The position numbers are program-made. Shown here one piece after another: positions 1 to 9,000 of a stretch of 64,000 nt of DNA. Position 1 is the stretch's first letter. Each line of letters opens with the position of its first letter. Source of the DNA: Bdellovibrionales bacterium (lineage in GTDB: Bacteria; Bdellovibrionota; Bdellovibrionia; Bdellovibrionales; Bdellovibrionaceae); NCBI GenBank assembly GCA_031370005.1, contig JANMPT010000110.1:1-64000 (forward strand), in the 5' to 3' direction.

Positions 1-3000
1 CACTAAAGCCTATCGCGGAAGCAAGCTCTCCACTCCCTTTTGGCAGGGCTTAGCCTTTACCAGGGTATTAAAAAGCTCTTTTGAAGAGATGCAGCTTAAA
101 GGCTATTTTCAGGCCAATCGCGAGCAGGCTGAGAGGGGCTACATTGCTCGGCAAGAGTATTTAGATAGATTCAACCGCTGGGTTTATCGACTGCGGGTAC
201 AGGATTACTTCTGAAGACGGAGCGCTGATGTCCAAAAGTTCTTTATTACAGCCCTAAAAACCGGGTTTGCCTCTGGCTGCCGGCCAAGTTATGCTTTGGC
301 AATGATAGAAATCATTATTTATGGGCTTTTATTTATTCTTGGTTTAGGACTTATTAGCTTTCGACCCATTGAGAAAACCACCGGAATTTCTCCTTATTGG
401 GAGATCGGTTTTGGTTCCCTTTTAGTGGTCTTTTTTGCCATTACAGTAACCTCAAATTTTGTAATGGAACCCATGAACGAAGAGGAGCTCGCAAAAAAGC
501 CCTGTGGTGCGAGCAGCCCTCAAGGCAGCTGCTACAGTATTGAGTATTCCTTGTGTGAAATTGCTTGGCAGAGAGCCGAAAGTCACTGCAAGTCAGAAAT
601 GGCGCAGGTTATGAGAGATCGCCCTTCTGCCCTTATCGGGCCCACATTAAGTCGTTGCCGCGCTAAGCAGATGGATCAAGCGCTTAGATATAATCGCACG
701 AATACGGATAGTGCTTACTGTAAGTCTTATTTCGAGCACATTGACAAGAGGTAATGGTCGATTGATGAACAGAGTCGCTGGGCCTAAGTCGCAGTTTTCG
801 GTTACCTAGGTGAACGGACCTTTGCGGAAGACCTGAGCGGGCACTATCCTGATAGTATGAAAAAGACCCCTCAATTGCGAAACCTTCTTTTTTCTTATGA
901 GACAACACTTTCTGAGGAAGAGTTTCAAAGTTTTGAACGAGAGGTTAATCGTCTACTGAATCATTATTCAGAAATTTTAAATTCTTATCGTGCCGGGGCT
1001 GAGCGAGCGCAGGTGGCTCAGGCACTGATTGATGAACAAGTAGAAATGAATTCTCATATCAAAACTAGTTGCCAAAAAGGATGCGGAGCTTGTTGTCATC
1101 TTGAGGTCGAAATCACTGAAGATGACGCGGACTTGTTAGCATATTCTATTCGCAATCAAAACTTGGTAATTGATGAAAAGCGCCTCCAGGAGTTGGCACA
1201 AAGAACGCGTTTAGACAAAAAATGGTCAGAGGGAGCAGTGTCTTCTAACCGTTGTATTTTGCTAGGTGCTGATAATGCCTGTAGCAACTACGCAAATCGC
1301 CCTTCAGTTTGCCGGAAACACTCAGTTACAACTCCTGCCGCCAATTGCTCCACTCTGGGAGCCTCGCCGGTCCCACTGCTGATTCCTATGAACGAAATCA
1401 TTCTCAGTGCGGCCCTTAATCAGCCAGGAAATGGGTTTGGATCACTGCCGAAAATGCTCGAAGCCGCGCTAATAAGAATCCGCGAAGCGGGAAGCCCCGT
1501 GGAGAGTGCGGATCTATTTTAACGATTCACGCTACTCATATCAGGGTAACGGCTTCCAGAGGTGACTCCTTTGGTAAACTCATGATTCAGCAGGGCTAGA
1601 TCTTTTTGCGTTAATTTAATTTCTGCAGCCTTGGCGTTTTCTTCAAGGCGAGATCGAGACTTTGTGCCGGGGATTGGAACAATATCGTCGCCTTGTGCAA
1701 GGACCCAAGCTAGCGCAAGCTGTGCAGTGGTGATTTTTTTTTCATGGGCAAGATCCTCGATATGCAAAACAAGCTGCATGTTTTTTTTAAAGTTTTCACC
1801 CTGAAAACGGGGATTGTTTTTGCGATAGTCGCCTTCAGGAATGTCTGCTTCAGTTTTAAATCGCCCAGTCAGAAAACCTCGACCTAGCGGGCTATAGGGG
1901 ACAAAGCCGATGCCGAGCTCGCGCACAGTTTTAAGAAGCTCTTCTTCGGGCTCGCGACTCCACAGCGAATACTCTGTTTGGAGAGCAGTTATTGGGTGGA
2001 TTTTATGAGCTTTGCGAATGGTTGCCGGCGCGGCTTCAGAAAGACCAAGATAGCGAACTTTACCTTCTTTAACAAGTTCTGACATCGCTTGAACAGTTTC
2101 CTCGATGGGAGTATTTGGGTCCACGCGATGCTGATAATAAAGATCAATCTGGTTCACTTTGAGCCTTTTCAGAGAATCTTCGCAGCACTTTTTTACATAT
2201 TCTGGTTTACCATTAACTCCAAGAAATTTTCCGTCTGGCGAGCGCATATTCCCAAACTTCGTTGCAATTACGAATTGGTCACGTTTTCCTTCGATAGCTT
2301 TGGCGAGTAACATCTCATTGGTGAAAGGCCCATACATATCAGCAGTATCAAGGAAATTGATTCCCAAATCTAAAGCATGGTGGATGGTAGCAATGGATTC
2401 TGCTTCATCACGCCCAGCGTAGAAGTCGGACATTCCCATGCAGCCGAGTCCCATACGAGAAACCTGCAGACCTTGGCTTCCCAATTTTACTTTTTTCATT
2501 TGAAACTCCTTGTTTTTGAAAATGCTTTGATACGGTTAATGCCTCCATCAGGATGGATCATCACTCGAATCTGTGAAAATTTTGCTGATGTTTTAACATC
2601 GAAAATAATCTTATTGCCAGCATAGTTTTTGACATTAATTTTATCAACCAATCTTGTCCAACCACCGTCTTCAAGCCCTTGAATTGATACCTCAAAGGGA
2701 TTGTTATTCACAAAATAAGTAAAATCAAGTTCGAGTCGTGCGAGAGAGGATTGCTTGCCAAGAGCTATGATTACCTCCTCAAAGTGTTCTTTGGCACGAC
2801 TTCGTGCAGACTCCATTCCATCAAACATATGAAGAGGAGGAAAAGGTGAAATCACCTGGGCCGCAGGGCCATAGTGCTCATTTGTTGCGCTGACGATAGT
2901 TCCGCCAAAGGCCGAGCTTGCTAGGTCGACTTCAGATCCGGGTTTGAGGCTCTCCCAGTTTTTTTTGATATTGAATTCCGTGGCATCGTATTTCGGCGTC

Positions 3001-6000: not shown

Positions 6001-9000
6001 ATTCCCCCACGAGAGCCGACCACCTCGGCAAGTAAGTCATGGGAGCCTTTAATATACTTTATGACGATATCAGGATCTGCCTTTACCGGTATGCGATAGT
6101 TTGCGTCTTCTTTAAAAAGACGCGCAGTGGAGCCCAGGTAGTCATGCCATCCAAGAGAGGCCCCCGCAAAGTAAGGGTAGAGCTCGTCCATAATTTCATT
6201 TACACGAAAAACTGCACGGGGATTTTCAAGTACGATCAGCAGACGTATAGAGCCTATCCTATATTCTGGATGCGCTTTGCAGATCATTTTTTCTGCGGTC
6301 TCTATCATAATACGGATGTAGCGGGCCTCTTCTTCGGTTTCGAGTTTTGGTACGTAAAAAGCCAAGGCTTCAATGTTTTGCCAACTTGCAAATAGATGAA
6401 GCGCGAAATCATAAAGATGAAGCGGCAAAGGATTGTTTCGATAGAAAAGGAAAGGACATGGCAGAGCTATCCCTGGAAAGCGCTTTACCGGAAGGGCGAG
6501 GTGATCTTTTTCAAGTTTGTATTCTTTTTTGGTTTTTGGATCGGAGAAAGCGATTTTTTTTTCAAAACATTGAGTGAGGTTTTCACCGGCAGAAATAAGG
6601 TCTTGCCGTAAAGGAGTTTTTGAGTCCTCATCATCGGCTCCCCACTTTGGAGAGCTTGTGTGGGTATTAAGCAATTCTGCGATGATGGCTGGCTCATCTT
6701 TGAGTTTGCGATGATAAGCATTCATTGCATTGATAGAGAGTTTGGCATCATCCGGTGGGCCAAAGAGAGTGACATGATAGCCTTGCAAGAAGTCTGGAAT
6801 CTTTGCAATAGGGGCCCCGCCGCCGGCTTTGCAATAGAGCATGTTCTTAGGGCCAATCACAATTCTTCCAGCAGCATCCTCCTGGCCGATGAGTGTCTGG
6901 TAGCGCTCATCTAGGAAGTCAACTCCAAGAGATTTATTTAGTTCGTAGCATGCTCGAGTTCTTTGATCGATAAATTTTCGGTCGGCGATTCGCTGCTCAA
7001 GTACTTTGTTTAATTCGTTTTTAACGGCATCATAAAGATCACACAAAAACTGCAAGGATTCAGTGGTCTCTAGTCCGCCTAAATTGCCAATATGAATGAG
7101 GTCTGGAATCTCAGGAGCGGGTTTTCCCTCCGACATCAGCTGTTTGAGAAAACTCGCAGAGATATAGTCTTGGTAGTAAGGAATTTCTTTTTGAGTCATC
7201 AGCTTTTTGGCAGTTACTGCCTAACTTCCTTTGTAGGTTGAATATCCAAATGGGTTTAGTAAAAGGGGGACGTGATACTTACGCCCAATGTCGACAACTT
7301 TAAAAACCACCTGTACATTCATGAAAAAAAAATCTCGTCCCTTTTTTTTGAAATATTCTTCGATTTCAAAAATGATTTGATAGGTGCCTGGTGCCTTTTC
7401 ACAATCAAAAATGAACCGGCCATCGGCATTGGTATTTCCCTTGGCGAGATCTCTCCACGTATTGCCATCTTTTTTTAAAAGTTTCACCAAGACGGATTCG
7501 GCAGGGGAGCCAAGGCTTGTATCTAAGATGTGGGTGCTTATCATTTTGTTTCCTTCAATTATTGCGTTTGTTTTGTCTTAAACTCAAATACCAAGTTCAG
7601 CTTGCCATTTGCCGCCACATCAACCTCTTTGGTTTGAGTCCCAAAGATCTCATGCCATAGTTCGAGGCTATAATGTCCTGGGGGGAGGTTCTTAATGCTG
7701 AACTGTCCCTTATCGTCAGTGATGCTGTAGTATGGATTGTCCATCACGGCAATGTAAGCGCTCATCCAAGGATGTACGCTGCATTTTGTCTGCACAAAAA
7801 TTTCAGGTTTATCAAAGATCTTTGTGATGCGGTCGTTTTTATTAGGCATAGCTATGTTGAAGATTTCATTATTTTTGGTGATAGATCGAACATTATGAAA
7901 AAGTGCATCGCTATTTACAAACTCTACTTTTTGGCCTACACGGCTGGCGCTAATTCTTGGCTCATACAAACAACCAATCTGATCAATAATCACAGGCTCA
8001 GTGGGAACATCTGTAAAGTGTTTCCCTTCAAGGCCTTTTGAGACGCGCACAAGAGCATTCTTCAGCAGTCCATTGTTGACGATAAGCTCATTGGAGTAGG
8101 CATCTCCTTTGTAGTGTGTCGCGCAGGCAAAGGGTAAAAGAAGTTTTTCTGCTTGAGGCACTGGGCCTTCAAATTTTACAATTCCGTTCACTTCGCTAAC
8201 TGTGCCCACCGCATCAGTGGAAGCGGGGATAATGGGCTTTGGCGTTTCAAGTTGAGTTTCCTGAGTCACCGCTGAATTGACCACATTTTCACGAGTAAAG
8301 ATCATCACGCCTAAAATCAAGAAAATACCAATGGCGGCAAAGACTTTGGAGCGAGTTGGATTCTTAATGCGAACCACAAAGAACTCGCGAATAGCAGCCC
8401 CCGCAGCGCTTATCAACAGCAGGATCAACCAATTCCACCGATTTCCATAAGTGGAGGAAAAGTGATTGCTTAGCATGATGAAGATAACAGGTAAGGTGAA
8501 ATAGGTATTGTGCGTGGATCTGTTCTTGGCGTTTTTTGCCCAGTCTTGATTAAGGGCCTCGCCTTTTTTTGCTGCTTCCACCATTTTAACTTGGCGAGGA
8601 ATGATTCGCAAAAAAACATTGGCTGTCATCCAAGTTCCAAGCATTGCACCGATATGCATGTAAGCTGCCCGGCCACTTAAGGTGTGACAAAGAAAGTAGG
8701 ACATTCCGGCAAACCAGAGCAGGGTCAGTGCGTGACCAATGAGGGGCGTATCTTTTGTTAGTTTTGTCTCCCAAAGGTAGTCATAAAAAATCCAAGAGAC
8801 AATAATTGAGCCTACACCGATTCCCACTGCTTGCCAGTACGTAACACCTGAGACTGAAGAGTCTAATAAAAAGGTTCCACCGCCAGTATAGAAGATCGCA
8901 AGCAGCAAGAAGGTTCCACTCATCCAAGTCCAATAGGACTCCCATTTAAACCAGTGAAGCTGCTCTGGGACTTTTATCGGGCCCATTTGCAATTTTTCGA

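What a model noticed while it worked through the whole genome (the two positions that open the first line are those of the whole stretch)
2496..7199. Five-step urate-to-malate megaenzyme with a beta-lactamase-fold domain in the place of allantoinase
g01628 (1567 aa) fuses malate synthase A-like, OHCU decarboxylase, a class-C beta-lactamase-fold serine hydrolase and allantoicase in one chain, next to HIU hydrolase and a PuuD-type urate oxidase. The serine-hydrolase domain sits between the enzyme that makes allantoin and the one that uses allantoate, and is proposed to be a third, non-homologous type of allantoinase (cyclic-amide hydrolase).
Evidence so far: Pfam domains 253-646 MS, 710-825 OHCU_decarbox, 833-1150 Beta-lactamase, 1228-1562 Allantoicase x2. 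Genome (99.8% complete) has no AllB over cut-off, no PuuE, no AllA. In 384 Bdellovibrionales genomes 44 have allantoicase: 42 carry it fused to this domain and none of these has AllB/PuuE over cut-off; the 2 with stand-alone allantoicase have AllB next to it. SxxK, YSG, HxG motifs invariant. Same subfamily is fused to allantoicase alone or OHCU decarboxylase alone in other bacteria and protists. The malate synthase part keeps the catalytic Arg (KRFPG), both Mg ligands (VLENP, GWHDY) and the catalytic Asp (MDDLATAE) when aligned to E. coli malate synthase A 3cuz. Model of the serine-hydrolase d [...]
(Added by a program. Inside this text positions count along the whole contig: contig position 1 is position 1 of the stretch shown here. 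"Call 12" and the like, gene names such as g00115 and contig names such as C1 are that model's own, and its searches are not shown. The text may have been shortened before it was handed on; [...] marks where a part breaks off. The agent that wrote the report below was given it as the finding of a first reader that could run no searches.)

Follow-up and report, generated by a model that had tools for sequence, protein, structure and literature searches.

The report
Four-enzyme urate-breakdown fusion, candidate new allantoinase
One very long bacterial protein joins four enzyme modules of uric-acid breakdown, and two of them, a beta-lactamase-like module and a malate-synthase-like module, probably carry out the two pathway steps (allantoin hydrolysis and ureidoglycolate cleavage) for which these genomes have no known gene.

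Summary
ORF 2496-7199(-) encodes 1567 aa with malate-synthase-like (MSL), OHCU decarboxylase, class-C beta-lactamase-fold (BL) and allantoicase domains. It follows a PuuD urate oxidase and an HIU hydrolase.

AllB is over cut-off only in the 2 with stand-alone allantoicase; PuuE and AllA are in 0 of 44. Thirty further fusion genomes from other orders and phyla also have none of the three.

New evidence for BL as allantoinase:
- Metagenomic purine clusters with stand-alone MSL and no BL carry a true PuuE.
- A dinoflagellate transcript fuses BL, AllA and allantoicase.
- Many eukaryotic stand-alone BL proteins end in peroxisomal signals.

The "urate-to-malate" part is doubtful. MSL keeps the malate synthase catalytic residues, but R276W and W277H are fixed and there is a loop insertion. 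It coexists with a canonical aceB-aceA pair in 22 fusion genomes. It sits in three AllA-less ureide cluster types, one without allantoicase. In the two AllB genomes DUF6986 stands in its place. Zebrafish MS-like protein is a proven ureidoglycolate lyase (PMC10120013).

My odds: BL is an allantoinase, about 0.8; MSL has ureidoglycolate lyase activity, about 0.6. There is no enzymology. Three earlier notes of this scan reached the same reading on other genomes.

The parts
7559..9190 (-). PuuD-type (membrane) urate oxidase, 543 aa, with a C-terminal CarboxypepD_reg/transthyretin-like stretch (res 479-542). First gene of the run.
   Evidence: PF06181 Urate_ox_N 355 bits; PF13620 33 bits. A PuuD homologue lies beside the fusion in most of 80 related loci.
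7221..7544 (-). 5-hydroxyisourate hydrolase, 107 aa. 14 nt after PuuD and 21 nt before the fusion.
   Evidence: TIGR02962 120.9 bits, cut-off 87.45; PF00576 111.8 bits; gaps. Adjacent to the fusion in nearly all of 80 loci.
2496..7199 (-). Whole four-domain ORF, 1567 aa (MSL-OHCU decarboxylase-BL-allantoicase).
   Evidence: The same architecture is found in all 80 best genome-contig loci.
5100..7199 (-). Malate-synthase-like (MSL) domain, res 1-700. It has the MSA fold plus about 170 extra residues. Proposed ureidoglycolate lyase; malate synthase activity is not excluded. Key residues: R240, E325, W351-H352-D353, W443, D566.
   Evidence: PF01274 and PF20659. TIGR01344 129 bits against cut-off 594.5. 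Model pLDDT 91.6; best PDB match 3cuz, TMt 0.83, 23% id. Residue comparison. Contexts.
4725..5099 (-). OHCU decarboxylase domain, res 701-825 (matches positions 40-155 of the 155-position Pfam model).
   Evidence: PF09349 63.9 bits, cut-off 24. TIGR03180 68.7 bits, under its cut-off of 139.4.
3555..4724 (-). Class-C beta-lactamase/DD-peptidase-fold serine hydrolase domain (BL), res 826-1215, including a conserved C-terminal tail (QEvVNiGYrdLiF, 1188-1200). Proposed allantoinase. Motifs: S877-L-S-K880, Y976-S-G, H1117-Q-G. Further invariant residues: H937, H943, Y944, N1121, R1125.
   Evidence: PF00144 84.9 bits. Invariant columns in A1 and A2, numbering. Model pLDDT 93.4, pTM 0.93. Foldseek TM 0.61-0.70 to IS11 esterase, R61 DD-peptidase, LACTB, D-amino-acid amidase and AmpC. 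Fusion and complementarity evidence.
2496..3554 (-). Allantoicase domain (two allantoicase repeats), res 1216-1567 plus the stop codon.
   Evidence: PF03561 173.8 bits, two stretches. TIGR02961 188 bits, under its cut-off of 277.9; stand-alone allantoicases score 377-406.
1519..2499 (-). Aldo/keto reductase, 326 aa. Its ATG overlaps the fusion's stop codon by 4 nt, so it is probably co-transcribed. It is not a conserved part of the system.
   Evidence: PF00248 274.8 bits; overlap. No AKR homologue was found beside the fusion in 80 related loci.

Best explanation
PuuD, HIU hydrolase and the 1567-aa protein form one purine-catabolic unit. It takes urate to glyoxylate plus two urea.

Proposed steps:
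1. PuuD oxidises urate to 5-hydroxyisourate.
2. HIUase opens it to OHCU.
3. The OHCU decarboxylase domain makes (S)-allantoin.
4. The BL domain opens the hydantoin ring of allantoin to allantoate. It would use a Ser877/Lys880/Tyr976 acyl-enzyme mechanism, as its relatives do on beta-lactams and D-amino-acid amides. This would make it a third, non-homologous kind of allantoinase.
5. The allantoicase domain releases urea and ureidoglycolate.
6. [quoted passage not shown] What is shown: the domains, their order, their conservation, and the gene presence/absence patterns. What is inferred: both new activities. My odds are about 0.8 that BL is the allantoinase and about 0.6 that MSL has ureidoglycolate lyase activity. 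The confidence below is for both together.
For: For BL as allantoinase:
1. Rosetta-stone evidence. BL always lies between OHCU decarboxylase and allantoicase. All 80 best genome loci show this, from Bdellovibrionota, Planctomycetota, Myxococcota, Lysobacteraceae and others. Of 62 representative hits with a near-complete BL domain, 34 are fused to allantoicase or purine domains and 28 stand alone.
2. P0047, a transcript of the dinoflagellate Polykrikos, is BL + AllA (114 bits) + allantoicase (275 bits) and ends in SKL. Ureidoglycolate lyase is already there, so allantoinase is the one step left for BL.
3. Complementarity. AllB is over cut-off in 0 of 42 fusion genomes of the order and in 2 of 2 genomes with stand-alone allantoicase. 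PuuE is in 0 of 44. The BL query finds nothing in those 2 genomes. In 30 further fusion genomes AllB and PuuE are 0 of 30.
4. Three metagenomic clusters with stand-alone MSL and no BL carry a true PuuE (516, 480 and 525 bits against cut-off 424.6).
5. The SxxK motif, Tyr976 and His1117 are invariant, and the model is confident.
6. HyuB is over cut-off in only 20 of 42 fusion genomes.

For MSL as ureidoglycolate lyase:
- AllA is in 0 of 44 and 0 of 30 genomes.
- MSL of 54% identity or more is found only in fusion genomes.
- 22 fusion genomes also have a canonical MSA. ICL is over cut-off in 23 fusion genomes, where seen always beside that MSA, and never in an MSL-only genome.
- R276W, W277H, R168P and H171A are fixed in the MSL family, and there is an 8-13-aa insertion before the catalytic Asp.
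- MSL sits in a PuuE-racemase-MSL-UGlyAH-AAH cluster that has no allantoicase.
- DUF6986, of the same superfamily, is present in exactly the 2 of 44 genomes that lack MSL.
- Zebrafish MS-like protein is a proven ureidoglycolate lyase with no malate synthase activity (PMC10120013, sections 10-12 read).
Against: - There is no enzymology for either domain, and no docking or ligand evidence.
- The genomes counted are related, so the number of independent events behind the complementarity is small: set A against set B in the order, three metagenomic clusters, and the eukaryotic fusions.
- The Asn of the usual YxN motif is Gly here, and no solved relative is closer than 19% identity.
- Eukaryotic genomes could not be checked for AllB.
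- The fused allantoicase and OHCU domains fall under their NCBIfam equivalog cut-offs, so they too are divergent.

Against MSL as a lyase only:
- It keeps R166, E250, D278 and D447, also W365 (which DrMSL lost), H368-P369 and the GNGC loop.
- Its fold matches MSA over the whole chain.
- Urease is absent from 44 of 44 genomes. The own genome has no allophanate hydrolase or glyoxylate carboligase over cut-off and no other malate synthase. Glyoxylate carbon may therefore be the only usable product, which would favour retained malate synthase activity.
- Yeast DAL7 is a genuine malate synthase in an allantoin cluster (stated in PMC10120013, section 12).
- I had no eukaryotic UGL sequence, so I could not test whether MSL groups with DrMSL.
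Confidence: 0.52

Rival explanations
1. BL is the allantoinase and the MS-like domain is a genuine malate synthase. Ureidoglycolate is split by the allantoicase domain itself or decays spontaneously. The chain then runs from OHCU to malate, capturing the two carbons of glyoxylate with acetyl-CoA.
For: - All four malate synthase catalytic residues, W365, H368-P369 and the GNGC loop are kept in 22 of 22 (G437: 21 of 22) MSL sequences.
- The fold covers the whole MSA chain (TMt 0.83).
- Urease is in 0 of 44 genomes, so the urea nitrogen seems unused and glyoxylate carbon is the useful product.
- The own genome has no other malate synthase and no glyoxylate carboligase over cut-off.
- Genuine malate synthase genes occur in purine clusters: yeast DAL7 and Paraglaciecola glcB, as stated in PMC10120013 section 12.
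- G059 and G253 also lack AllA.
Against: - R276W and W277H are fixed next to the Mg-ligand Asp, R168P and H171A next to the catalytic Arg, and there is an 8-13-aa insertion in the catalytic loop.
- TIGR01344 scores 129 bits against a cut-off of 594.5.
- 22 fusion genomes already have a canonical aceB-aceA pair, yet all keep MSL.
- The L176 cluster has MSL but no allantoicase that could moonlight.
- PMC10120013 judged purine-cluster malate synthases genuine because dedicated ureidoglycolate lyases are present. Here AllA is in 0 of 74 genomes.
Confidence: 0.25
2. The BL domain has another job in or near the pathway. It could be a ureidoglycolate or urea amidohydrolase, or an esterase or peptidase unrelated to ureides. 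Allantoin would then be hydrolysed by an enzyme not yet recognised, or by the HyuA/HyuB-type hydantoinase where present.
For: - There is no biochemical test.
- These genomes lack urease and AllA, so other amide-cleaving steps are also unassigned.
- Relatives of the fold are esterases, D-peptidases and amidases with many substrates.
- HyuB is over cut-off in 20 of 42 fusion genomes, including the own genome.
Against: - Clusters without BL have PuuE or AllB instead, and still lack AllA and urease. BL therefore tracks the allantoinase step, not the others.
- P0047 already has AllA beside BL.
- HyuB is missing from 22 of 42 fusion genomes, some 97-99% complete, and present in both AllB genomes.
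- The domain order OHCU-BL-allantoicase matches the pathway order.
Confidence: 0.13
3. The BL domain is a catalytically inert scaffold or linker kept for folding or assembly of the large protein.
For: Nothing specific. Inactive beta-lactamase-fold domains exist in other proteins (my own knowledge, not tested here).
Against: - The catalytic Ser, Lys, Tyr and His, plus a set of subfamily-specific polar residues, are invariant across bacteria and eukaryotes at 36-55% identity.
- The domain also exists as a stand-alone protein with peroxisomal targeting signals.
Confidence: 0.03

Closest known systems
PuuE allantoinase (polysaccharide-deacetylase fold; NCBIfam TIGR03212 'uraD_N-term-dom')
   Same: It has the same proposed reaction and the same genomic niche. 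In clusters L147, L152 and L176 a true PuuE sits where the BL domain is missing. The NCBIfam model name suggests that PuuE is also found joined to OHCU decarboxylase (my reading of the name), as BL is here.
   Different: The fold and chemistry are unrelated. The BL domain has no PF01522 match. No genome with the fusion has PuuE over cut-off (0 of 42 and 0 of 30).
AllB/DAL1 allantoinase (binuclear-metal amidohydrolase superfamily, TIGR03178)
   Same: It has the same proposed reaction. It sits next to stand-alone allantoicase in the two genomes of the order that lack the fusion.
   Different: It is a metal-dependent TIM-barrel enzyme and not homologous to BL. In fusion genomes the only hits to this model are dihydroorotase- or dihydropyrimidinase-type hits under the cut-off; the two such ORFs I scanned are a dihydroorotase and a dihydropyrimidinase.
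Class C beta-lactamases, R61 DD-peptidase, family VIII esterases (IS11, 7spn), D-amino-acid amidase (2drw), LACTB
   Same: The fold matches (Foldseek TM 0.61-0.70). It shares the SxxK motif, the second-motif Tyr and an H-x-G-type third motif like R61. Like these enzymes, it would attack a (cyclic) amide through an acyl-serine.
   Different: Identity is only 15-19%, and by sequence a single PDB hit is found at E 4e-4. The class C equivalog scores 25.9 bits against a cut-off of 415. The motif is YSG rather than YxN. There are subfamily-specific invariant residues H937, H943, Y944, N1121 and R1125 and a conserved C-terminal tail. The domain is always tied to purine-catabolic genes or domains, or to peroxisomal targeting.
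Zebrafish malate-synthase-like ureidoglycolate lyase (DrMSL/UGL; Dembech et al. 2023, PMC10120013)
   Same: It is a malate-synthase-family protein linked to allantoicase and urate oxidase in organisms without AllA. The Arg276 position is substituted, and there is an insertion near the active site.
   Different: DrMSL has R276I and W365M; MSL has R276W and keeps W365. MSL is about 680 aa. The paper states that its UGL group holds only eukaryotes. I could not place MSL in a tree with UGL sequences because none was on hand.
Malate synthase A (E. coli AceB, PDB 3cuz)
   Same: The whole-chain fold matches (TMt 0.83). R166, E250, D278, D447, W365, H368 and P369 are conserved.
   Different: Identity is 23%. 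TIGR01344 scores 129 bits against a cut-off of 594.5. Of 98 MSA-invariant columns, 27 are fixed to another residue in MSL. There are loop insertions and about 170 extra residues. MSL is never paired with isocitrate lyase.
Yeast DAL cluster (DAL1 allantoinase, DAL2 allantoicase, DAL3 ureidoglycolate lyase, DAL7 malate synthase)
   Same: Allantoin-degrading enzymes are grouped with a malate-synthase-family gene (as described in PMC13751858 and PMC10120013).
   Different: The yeast genes are separate, with a standard AllB-type allantoinase and a dedicated AllA-type lyase. Here there is one polypeptide, no AllB or PuuE, and no AllA.

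Membership tests
Allantoinase, AllB type (TIGR03178) | Amidohydrolase-superfamily domain scoring over the equivalog cut-off (357.85 bits) | tested here: not met
   The fusion has no amidohydrolase domain. The best genome hit is 274 bits, and that ORF is a dihydroorotase.
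Allantoinase, PuuE type (TIGR03212) | Polysaccharide-deacetylase-like domain over cut-off (424.6 bits) | tested here: not met
   No hit in the own genome. 0 of 44 and 0 of 30 genomes are over cut-off.
Allantoinase (by function, EC 3.5.2.5) | Hydrolysis of (S)-allantoin to allantoate | not testable with these tools
   Inferred only from fusion order, complementarity with AllB and PuuE, and the P0047 architecture.
Beta-lactamase/DD-peptidase fold (PF00144) | Pfam gathering score; SxxK with the nucleophilic Ser | tested here: met
   84.9 bits against 27. S877-x-x-K880 is invariant.
Beta-lactamase/DD-peptidase fold (PF00144) | Second motif Y-x-N and third motif K/H-T/x-G | tested here: inconclusive
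   Tyr976 and His1117 are invariant. But the second motif is Y-S-G (no Asn) and the third is H-Q-[G/A].
Beta-lactamase/DD-peptidase fold (PF00144) | Three-dimensional fold | tested here: met
   Model pLDDT 93.4. Foldseek probability 1.00 and TM 0.61-0.70 to 7spn, 3pte, 7v21, 2drw and AmpC.
Class C beta-lactamase proper (NF033085) | Equivalog cut-off of 415 bits | tested here: not met
   25.9 bits.
Malate synthase A (TIGR01344) | Equivalog cut-off of 594.5 bits | tested here: not met
   129.3 bits.
Malate synthase A | Catalytic Arg166 and Asp447; Mg ligands Glu250 and Asp278 | tested here: met
   R240, D566, E325 and D353 are present in 22 of 22 MSL sequences.
Malate synthase A | Other residues invariant in 11 canonical MSAs (for example R276, W277, R168, H171) | tested here: not met
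   Of 98 columns, 48 are kept, 27 are fixed to another residue, and the rest vary. There is an 8-13-aa insertion before Asp447.
Malate synthase A | Partnership with isocitrate lyase (glyoxylate shunt) | tested here: not met
   ICL is over cut-off only in genomes that have the canonical MSA (or, in G157, at a contig end); where both were located they lie side by side. It is never in an MSL-only genome. The own genome has only a 65-bit partial hit.
Eukaryotic MS-like ureidoglycolate lyase (DrMSL group) | Arg276 and Trp365 replaced (I and M in DrMSL) | tested here: inconclusive
   R276 is replaced, but by Trp. W365 is kept.
Eukaryotic MS-like ureidoglycolate lyase (DrMSL group) | Placement in the UGL clade; 2-aa insertion; loss of the acetyl-CoA site | not tested
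   No UGL sequence was on hand. The paper's supplement with the alignment could not be read, and the MSA structure paper is not held.
Allantoicase | Two allantoicase repeats (PF03561) | tested here: met
   173.8 bits, two stretches.
Allantoicase | NCBIfam equivalog cut-off (TIGR02961, 277.9 bits) | tested here: not met
   188.2 bits. Stand-alone allantoicases score 377 and 406.
OHCU decarboxylase | Pfam PF09349 over its gathering score | tested here: met
   63.9 bits against 24, covering model positions 40-155 only. TIGR03180 scores 68.7, under its cut-off of 139.4.

The most novel reading that the evidence does not exclude
The beta-lactamase-fold domain founds a third class of allantoinase. 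It would be used by predatory and other bacteria and, as a peroxisomal enzyme, by many marine protists and a copepod. The MSL domain would be a bifunctional ureidoglycolate lyase and malate synthase. That is the kind of enzyme Dembech et al. postulated as the ancestor of eukaryotic MS and UGL. It would let urease-less predators turn the purine rings of their prey into malate. DUF6986 would be a further, unrecognised ureidoglycolate-cleaving member of the same superfamily.
Probability: 0.18. Interest if true: 0.88.

Novelty: new variant of a known kind. Interest (0 to 1): 0.72.

Why it matters
Only two allantoinase types are known to me from the literature: the metal-dependent AllB/DAL1 type and PuuE. 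A serine-hydrolase allantoinase would be a third independent solution for the same ring opening. It would also be a new natural substrate class for the penicillin-binding-protein/beta-lactamase fold.

It would fill the allantoinase gap in at least 72 bacterial genomes examined here. The genome-contig scan found 332 relatives in species-representative genomes. It would probably also fill the gap in many protists, where the protein carries peroxisomal signals.

The MSL result bears on a published claim that MS-like ureidoglycolate lyases are confined to eukaryotes, and on the proposed bifunctional MS/UGL ancestor.

Both predictions can be tested directly with standard assays on soluble recombinant domains. 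Annotation pipelines now call these proteins 'serine hydrolase', 'allantoicase' or 'malate synthase' (source names).

Tried and rejected
- AllB-like hits as hidden allantoinases: rejected. The own-genome hit is a dihydroorotase. The G223 hit, 5 kb from the fusion, is a dihydropyrimidinase in a pyrimidine-catabolic cluster (TIGR02033, 608 bits).
- HyuA/HyuB as the allantoinase: rejected as a general answer. HyuB is over cut-off in 22 of 44 genomes, which is 20 of 42 fusion genomes plus both AllB genomes.
- Short bacterial architectures as independent fusions: mostly rejected as contig-cut pieces. L182 does show a separate OHCU-BL-Alc gene after a separate MSL gene.
- The downstream aldo/keto reductase as a conserved glyoxylate reductase partner: not supported. 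It is absent from 80 related loci.
- MSL as the glyoxylate-shunt enzyme: rejected.
- Direct comparison of MSL with eukaryotic UGL: could not be done. I had no UGL sequence, the supplement was unreadable, and the paper on the MSA structure is not held.
- The ESM Atlas look-up gave only generic 'beta-lactamase domain' clusters.
- The promoter and terminator scan gave nothing usable.
- Literature searches for a beta-lactamase-fold allantoinase found none. One search gave one paper, and its 'beta-lactamase' is LACTB2. Searches were judged from listings only. 'DUF6986' occurs in 0 papers.
- Stand-alone MSL loci L151, L158, L160-L163, L165, L168 and L172 showed no purine genes nearby. The family is therefore not always clustered with ureide genes.

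Full report
OBSERVATION

The ORF at 2496..7199(-) is real: 1567 aa with an ATG start. Pfam places MS_TIM-barrel at 253-456, MS_C at 527-646, OHCU_decarbox at 710-825, Beta-lactamase at 833-1150 (84.9 bits) and two allantoicase repeats from 1228.

Upstream on the same strand lie a PuuD-type urate oxidase (7559-9190; PF06181, 355 bits) and an HIU hydrolase (7221-7544; TIGR02962, 120.9 bits against 87.45). The gaps are 14 and 21 nt. An aldo/keto reductase (1519-2499) overlaps the stop codon by 4 nt, but it is not found beside the fusion in 80 related loci.

Every domain is divergent from its canonical family. On NCBIfam equivalog models the chain scores 129 against 594.5 (malate synthase A), 68.7 against 139.4 (OHCU decarboxylase), 25.9 against 415 (class C beta-lactamase) and 188 against 277.9 (allantoicase).

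GENOME AND ORDER COUNTS

Own genome (3.21 Mb, 99.79% complete):
- The best hit to the AllB model is 274 bits, under the 357.85 cut-off. That ORF is a dihydroorotase (NF006559, 700 bits against 482).
- PuuE and AllA give nothing.
- The only malate-synthase-family hit is the fusion itself.

Order, 384 genomes:
- 44 have allantoicase. In 37 it lies in open frames of 1311-1605 aa, in 5 in contig-cut pieces, and in 2 (G059, G253) in 322-344-aa frames with canonical scores.
- AllB is over cut-off in exactly those 2, directly beside allantoicase.
- PuuE is over cut-off in 0 of 44; the best score is 34 bits.
- AllA is in 0 of 44.
- The BL domain used as a query finds nothing in G059 and G253.

I then took 30 of the 80 fusion-bearing loci from the genome-contig scan. 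They belong to other orders and phyla: Bacteriovorax, Peredibacter, Oligoflexia, Silvanigrellaceae, Planctomycetota, Phycisphaerales, Myxococcales and Lysobacteraceae. I searched their genomes: PuuE 0 of 30, AllB 0 of 30 and AllA 0 of 30 over cut-off.

HyuB is over cut-off in 22 of 44 genomes. That is 20 of 42 fusion genomes, and it is missing from several that are 97-99% complete. It is present in both AllB genomes. A second AllB-like gene 5 kb from the fusion in G223 is a dihydropyrimidinase with pyrimidine-catabolic neighbours.

THE BL SUBFAMILY

A full HMMER search of 1.84 billion representatives with the BL domain gave 2652 hits, 90 of them at E<1e-30. Of the best 150, 62 contain a near-complete domain:
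- 28 stand alone;
- 22 are the four-domain protein, whole or cut;
- 10 are BL-allantoicase;
- 2 are OHCU-BL-allantoicase.

Pfam scans of 60 of them agree. Several short bacterial forms are contig-cut pieces of the long protein, so I do not count them as independent fusions. Locus L182 does show a separate OHCU-BL-Alc gene behind a separate MSL gene.

The independent cases are eukaryotic:
- P0047, from the dinoflagellate Polykrikos kofoidii, is BL + ureidoglycolate lyase (PF04115, 114 bits) + allantoicase (275 bits) and ends in SKL.
- A BL-allantoicase cluster includes the copepod Oithona nana.
- Stand-alone forms occur in Amorphochlora, Sphaeroforma, Prymnesium and many MMETSP and EukProt transcripts.
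- At least 7 of the 28 stand-alone proteins end in PTS1-like tripeptides (SKL, SRL, AKM, ARM).

In alignments of 21 and 24 sequences at 33-55% identity the following are invariant: S877, K880, H937, H943, Y944, Y976-S-G, H1117, N1121 and R1125. A C-terminal tail (1188-1200) is conserved.

The AlphaFold model is confident (pLDDT 93.4, pTM 0.93). It matches IS11 esterase, R61 DD-peptidase, LACTB, Pab87, D-amino-acid amidase and AmpC enzymes at TM 0.61-0.70 and 15-19% identity. By sequence only IS11 is found in the PDB, at E 4e-4.

WHY ALLANTOINASE AND NOT ANOTHER STEP

A metagenome scan with a stand-alone MSL returned purine clusters that lack BL.
- L147: MSL | PuuE (TIGR03212, 516 bits against 424.6) | PuuD | canonical allantoicase (377 bits).
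- L152: MSL | PuuE (480 bits) | PuuD.
- L176: PuuE (525 bits) | binding protein and ABC transporter | hydantoin-type racemase | MSL | ureidoglycine aminohydrolase (TIGR03214, 329 bits against 200) | allantoate amidohydrolase (NF006769, 470 bits against 452) | GntR.

G059 has XDH | PuuD | AllB | allantoicase | OHCU decarboxylase, followed by DUF6986.

So wherever BL is absent a known allantoinase is present, and wherever BL is present none is. The lack of AllA and of urease does not change between the two states. In P0047 the lyase step is already covered by AllA. Every one of these gene sets becomes a complete pathway if BL is the allantoinase. Under any other role for BL, the BL-bearing sets lack an allantoinase.

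THE MS-LIKE DOMAIN

The first 700 residues belong to a large family of about 680-aa stand-alone proteins. They are 49-77% identical to it and come from Desulfobulbales, Myxococcota, Bradymonadia, Planctomycetota and Halobacteriovoraceae. Sources name them 'malate synthase' or 'aldolase/citrate lyase family'. The model (pLDDT 91.6) matches E. coli MSA over the whole chain (TMt 0.83, 23% identity) and MSG less well.

I compared the family with 11 canonical MSAs: E. coli, 8 from the order and 2 from metagenomes. Of 98 MSA-invariant columns:
- 48 are kept in at least 20 of 22 MSL sequences, including R166, E250, D278, D447, W365, H368 and P369;
- 27 are fixed to another residue, including R276W and W277H beside the Mg-ligand Asp, and R168P and H171A beside the catalytic Arg;
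- an 8-13-aa insertion precedes the catalytic Asp.

In the order, MSL at 54% identity or more occurs only in fusion genomes: 42 genomes, one of them a contig-cut piece with no allantoicase hit. A canonical MSA of about 540-580 aa (24-31% identical) is present in many genomes, including 22 fusion genomes. Isocitrate lyase is over cut-off in 24 of 44 genomes. Where seen it is always beside that canonical MSA, and it is never in a genome that has only MSL. MSL is therefore not a glyoxylate-shunt enzyme.

Dembech et al. (PMC10120013; abstract, passages and sections 10-12 read) showed the following:
- Zebrafish MS-like protein is a ureidoglycolate lyase with no malate synthase activity.
- It is distinguished by R276I, W365M, an unconserved acetyl-CoA site and a 2-aa insertion.
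- Their UGL group held only eukaryotes.
- They judged bacterial malate synthase genes in purine operons to be genuine because dedicated lyases are present.

Here no dedicated lyase is present in 74 of 74 genomes. In addition, L176 has no allantoicase that could moonlight.

DUF6986 adds to this. It has weak Pfam matches to MS_TIM-barrel (E 0.0025) and HpcH_HpaI (E 0.0033). hhalign to MSL gives 55% probability and E 1.2e-4 over the segment aligning the PK, LE(T/N)P and xDY motifs (E325 and D353 of MSL). Several family members carry precomputed PF01274 or PF03328 labels. It is found in exactly the 2 of 44 genomes that lack MSL, and in G059 it lies inside the purine cluster. So AllB stands where BL stands, and DUF6986 stands where MSL stands.

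EVIDENCE ON THE OTHER SIDE

- MSL keeps every malate synthase catalytic residue, and also W365, which DrMSL lost.
- Urease is absent from 44 of 44 genomes.
- The own genome has no allophanate hydrolase or glyoxylate carboligase over cut-off and no other malate synthase. Urea seems to be waste, and glyoxylate carbon may be the only gain. That would favour retained malate synthase activity, perhaps together with lyase activity.
- I could not compare MSL with UGL sequences, because none was on hand. The supplement with the alignment was unreadable and the MSA structure paper is not held.
- Nine stand-alone MSL loci show no purine genes nearby.

VERDICT

The object is a conserved, horizontally spread, four-domain purine-catabolic enzyme. 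The genome-contig scan found 332 relatives in species-representative genomes, and the 80 kept all have the same architecture.

My odds are about 0.8 that BL is the allantoinase and about 0.6 that MSL has ureidoglycolate lyase activity, with or without malate synthase activity. No paper in the held library links allantoinase to this fold (searches, judged from listings; for the one overlap). DUF6986 occurs in no paper.

Three earlier notes of this scan (e1-1114346, e1-4157649, e1-955000) reached the same two-part reading on other genomes. I saw them only after forming mine. They are not independent evidence.

Noticed in passing
L215:7682-9025 (G059:C19), also G253:C177:31-1098: DUF6986 (PF22484; 572 and 524 bits) lies in an XDH-PuuD-AllB-allantoicase-OHCU decarboxylase cluster. 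It is present in exactly the 2 of 44 allantoicase genomes that lack the MSL fusion. It is a very large, conserved family (at least 8000 relatives at about 60% identity) with weak matches to the malate synthase/HpcH TIM barrel. Sources call it 'citrate lyase beta subunit' or 'phosphoenolpyruvate kinase'. It is a candidate for the missing ureidoglycolate step. No paper mentions it.
   Followed up: partly
L147:4447-10113; L152:6889-11083; L176:1646-12965: Stand-alone MSL genes sit in three types of ureide clusters with true PuuE: two with PuuD (L147 also with a canonical allantoicase), and one with racemase, ureidoglycine aminohydrolase and allantoate amidohydrolase. None has AllA in view.
   Followed up: partly
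44 genomes of the order; own genome C70, C42: Urease alpha is absent from all 44 allantoicase-bearing genomes. The own genome also has no allophanate hydrolase or glyoxylate carboligase over cut-off. The urea made by this pathway appears to be unused.
   Followed up: partly
window 7559-9190 (-), residues 479-542: The PuuD urate oxidase here is 543 aa and carries a C-terminal CarboxypepD_reg/transthyretin-like stretch (33 bits). PuuD in L147, L152 and G059 is 393-402 aa and lacks it.
   Followed up: no
G016:C1:3261669-3262508, G013:C1:3254832-3255671, also G003, G114, G233, G236, G055: Canonical MSA-like hits lie in open frames of about 960-1010 aa, roughly twice the usual length. They may be a fusion of malate synthase A with another domain.
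   Followed up: no
L186:1152-6875: A metagenome contig has MSL-like pieces spread over several frames on both strands, with OHCU- and HIUase-like fragments. It could be a decayed copy or a poor assembly.
   Followed up: no
window 1519-2499 (-): An aldo/keto reductase (PF00248, 275 bits) has a start codon that overlaps the fusion's stop by 4 nt. It is not conserved beside the fusion in 80 loci. It could reduce glyoxylate or another aldehyde in this genome only.
   Followed up: partly
G223:C4:65423-66769 (L192): A reductive pyrimidine-catabolism cluster lies about 5 kb from the fusion in that genome. It holds dihydropyrimidinase (608 bits), methylmalonate-semialdehyde dehydrogenase and an N-carbamoyl amidase-like gene.
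   Followed up: yes
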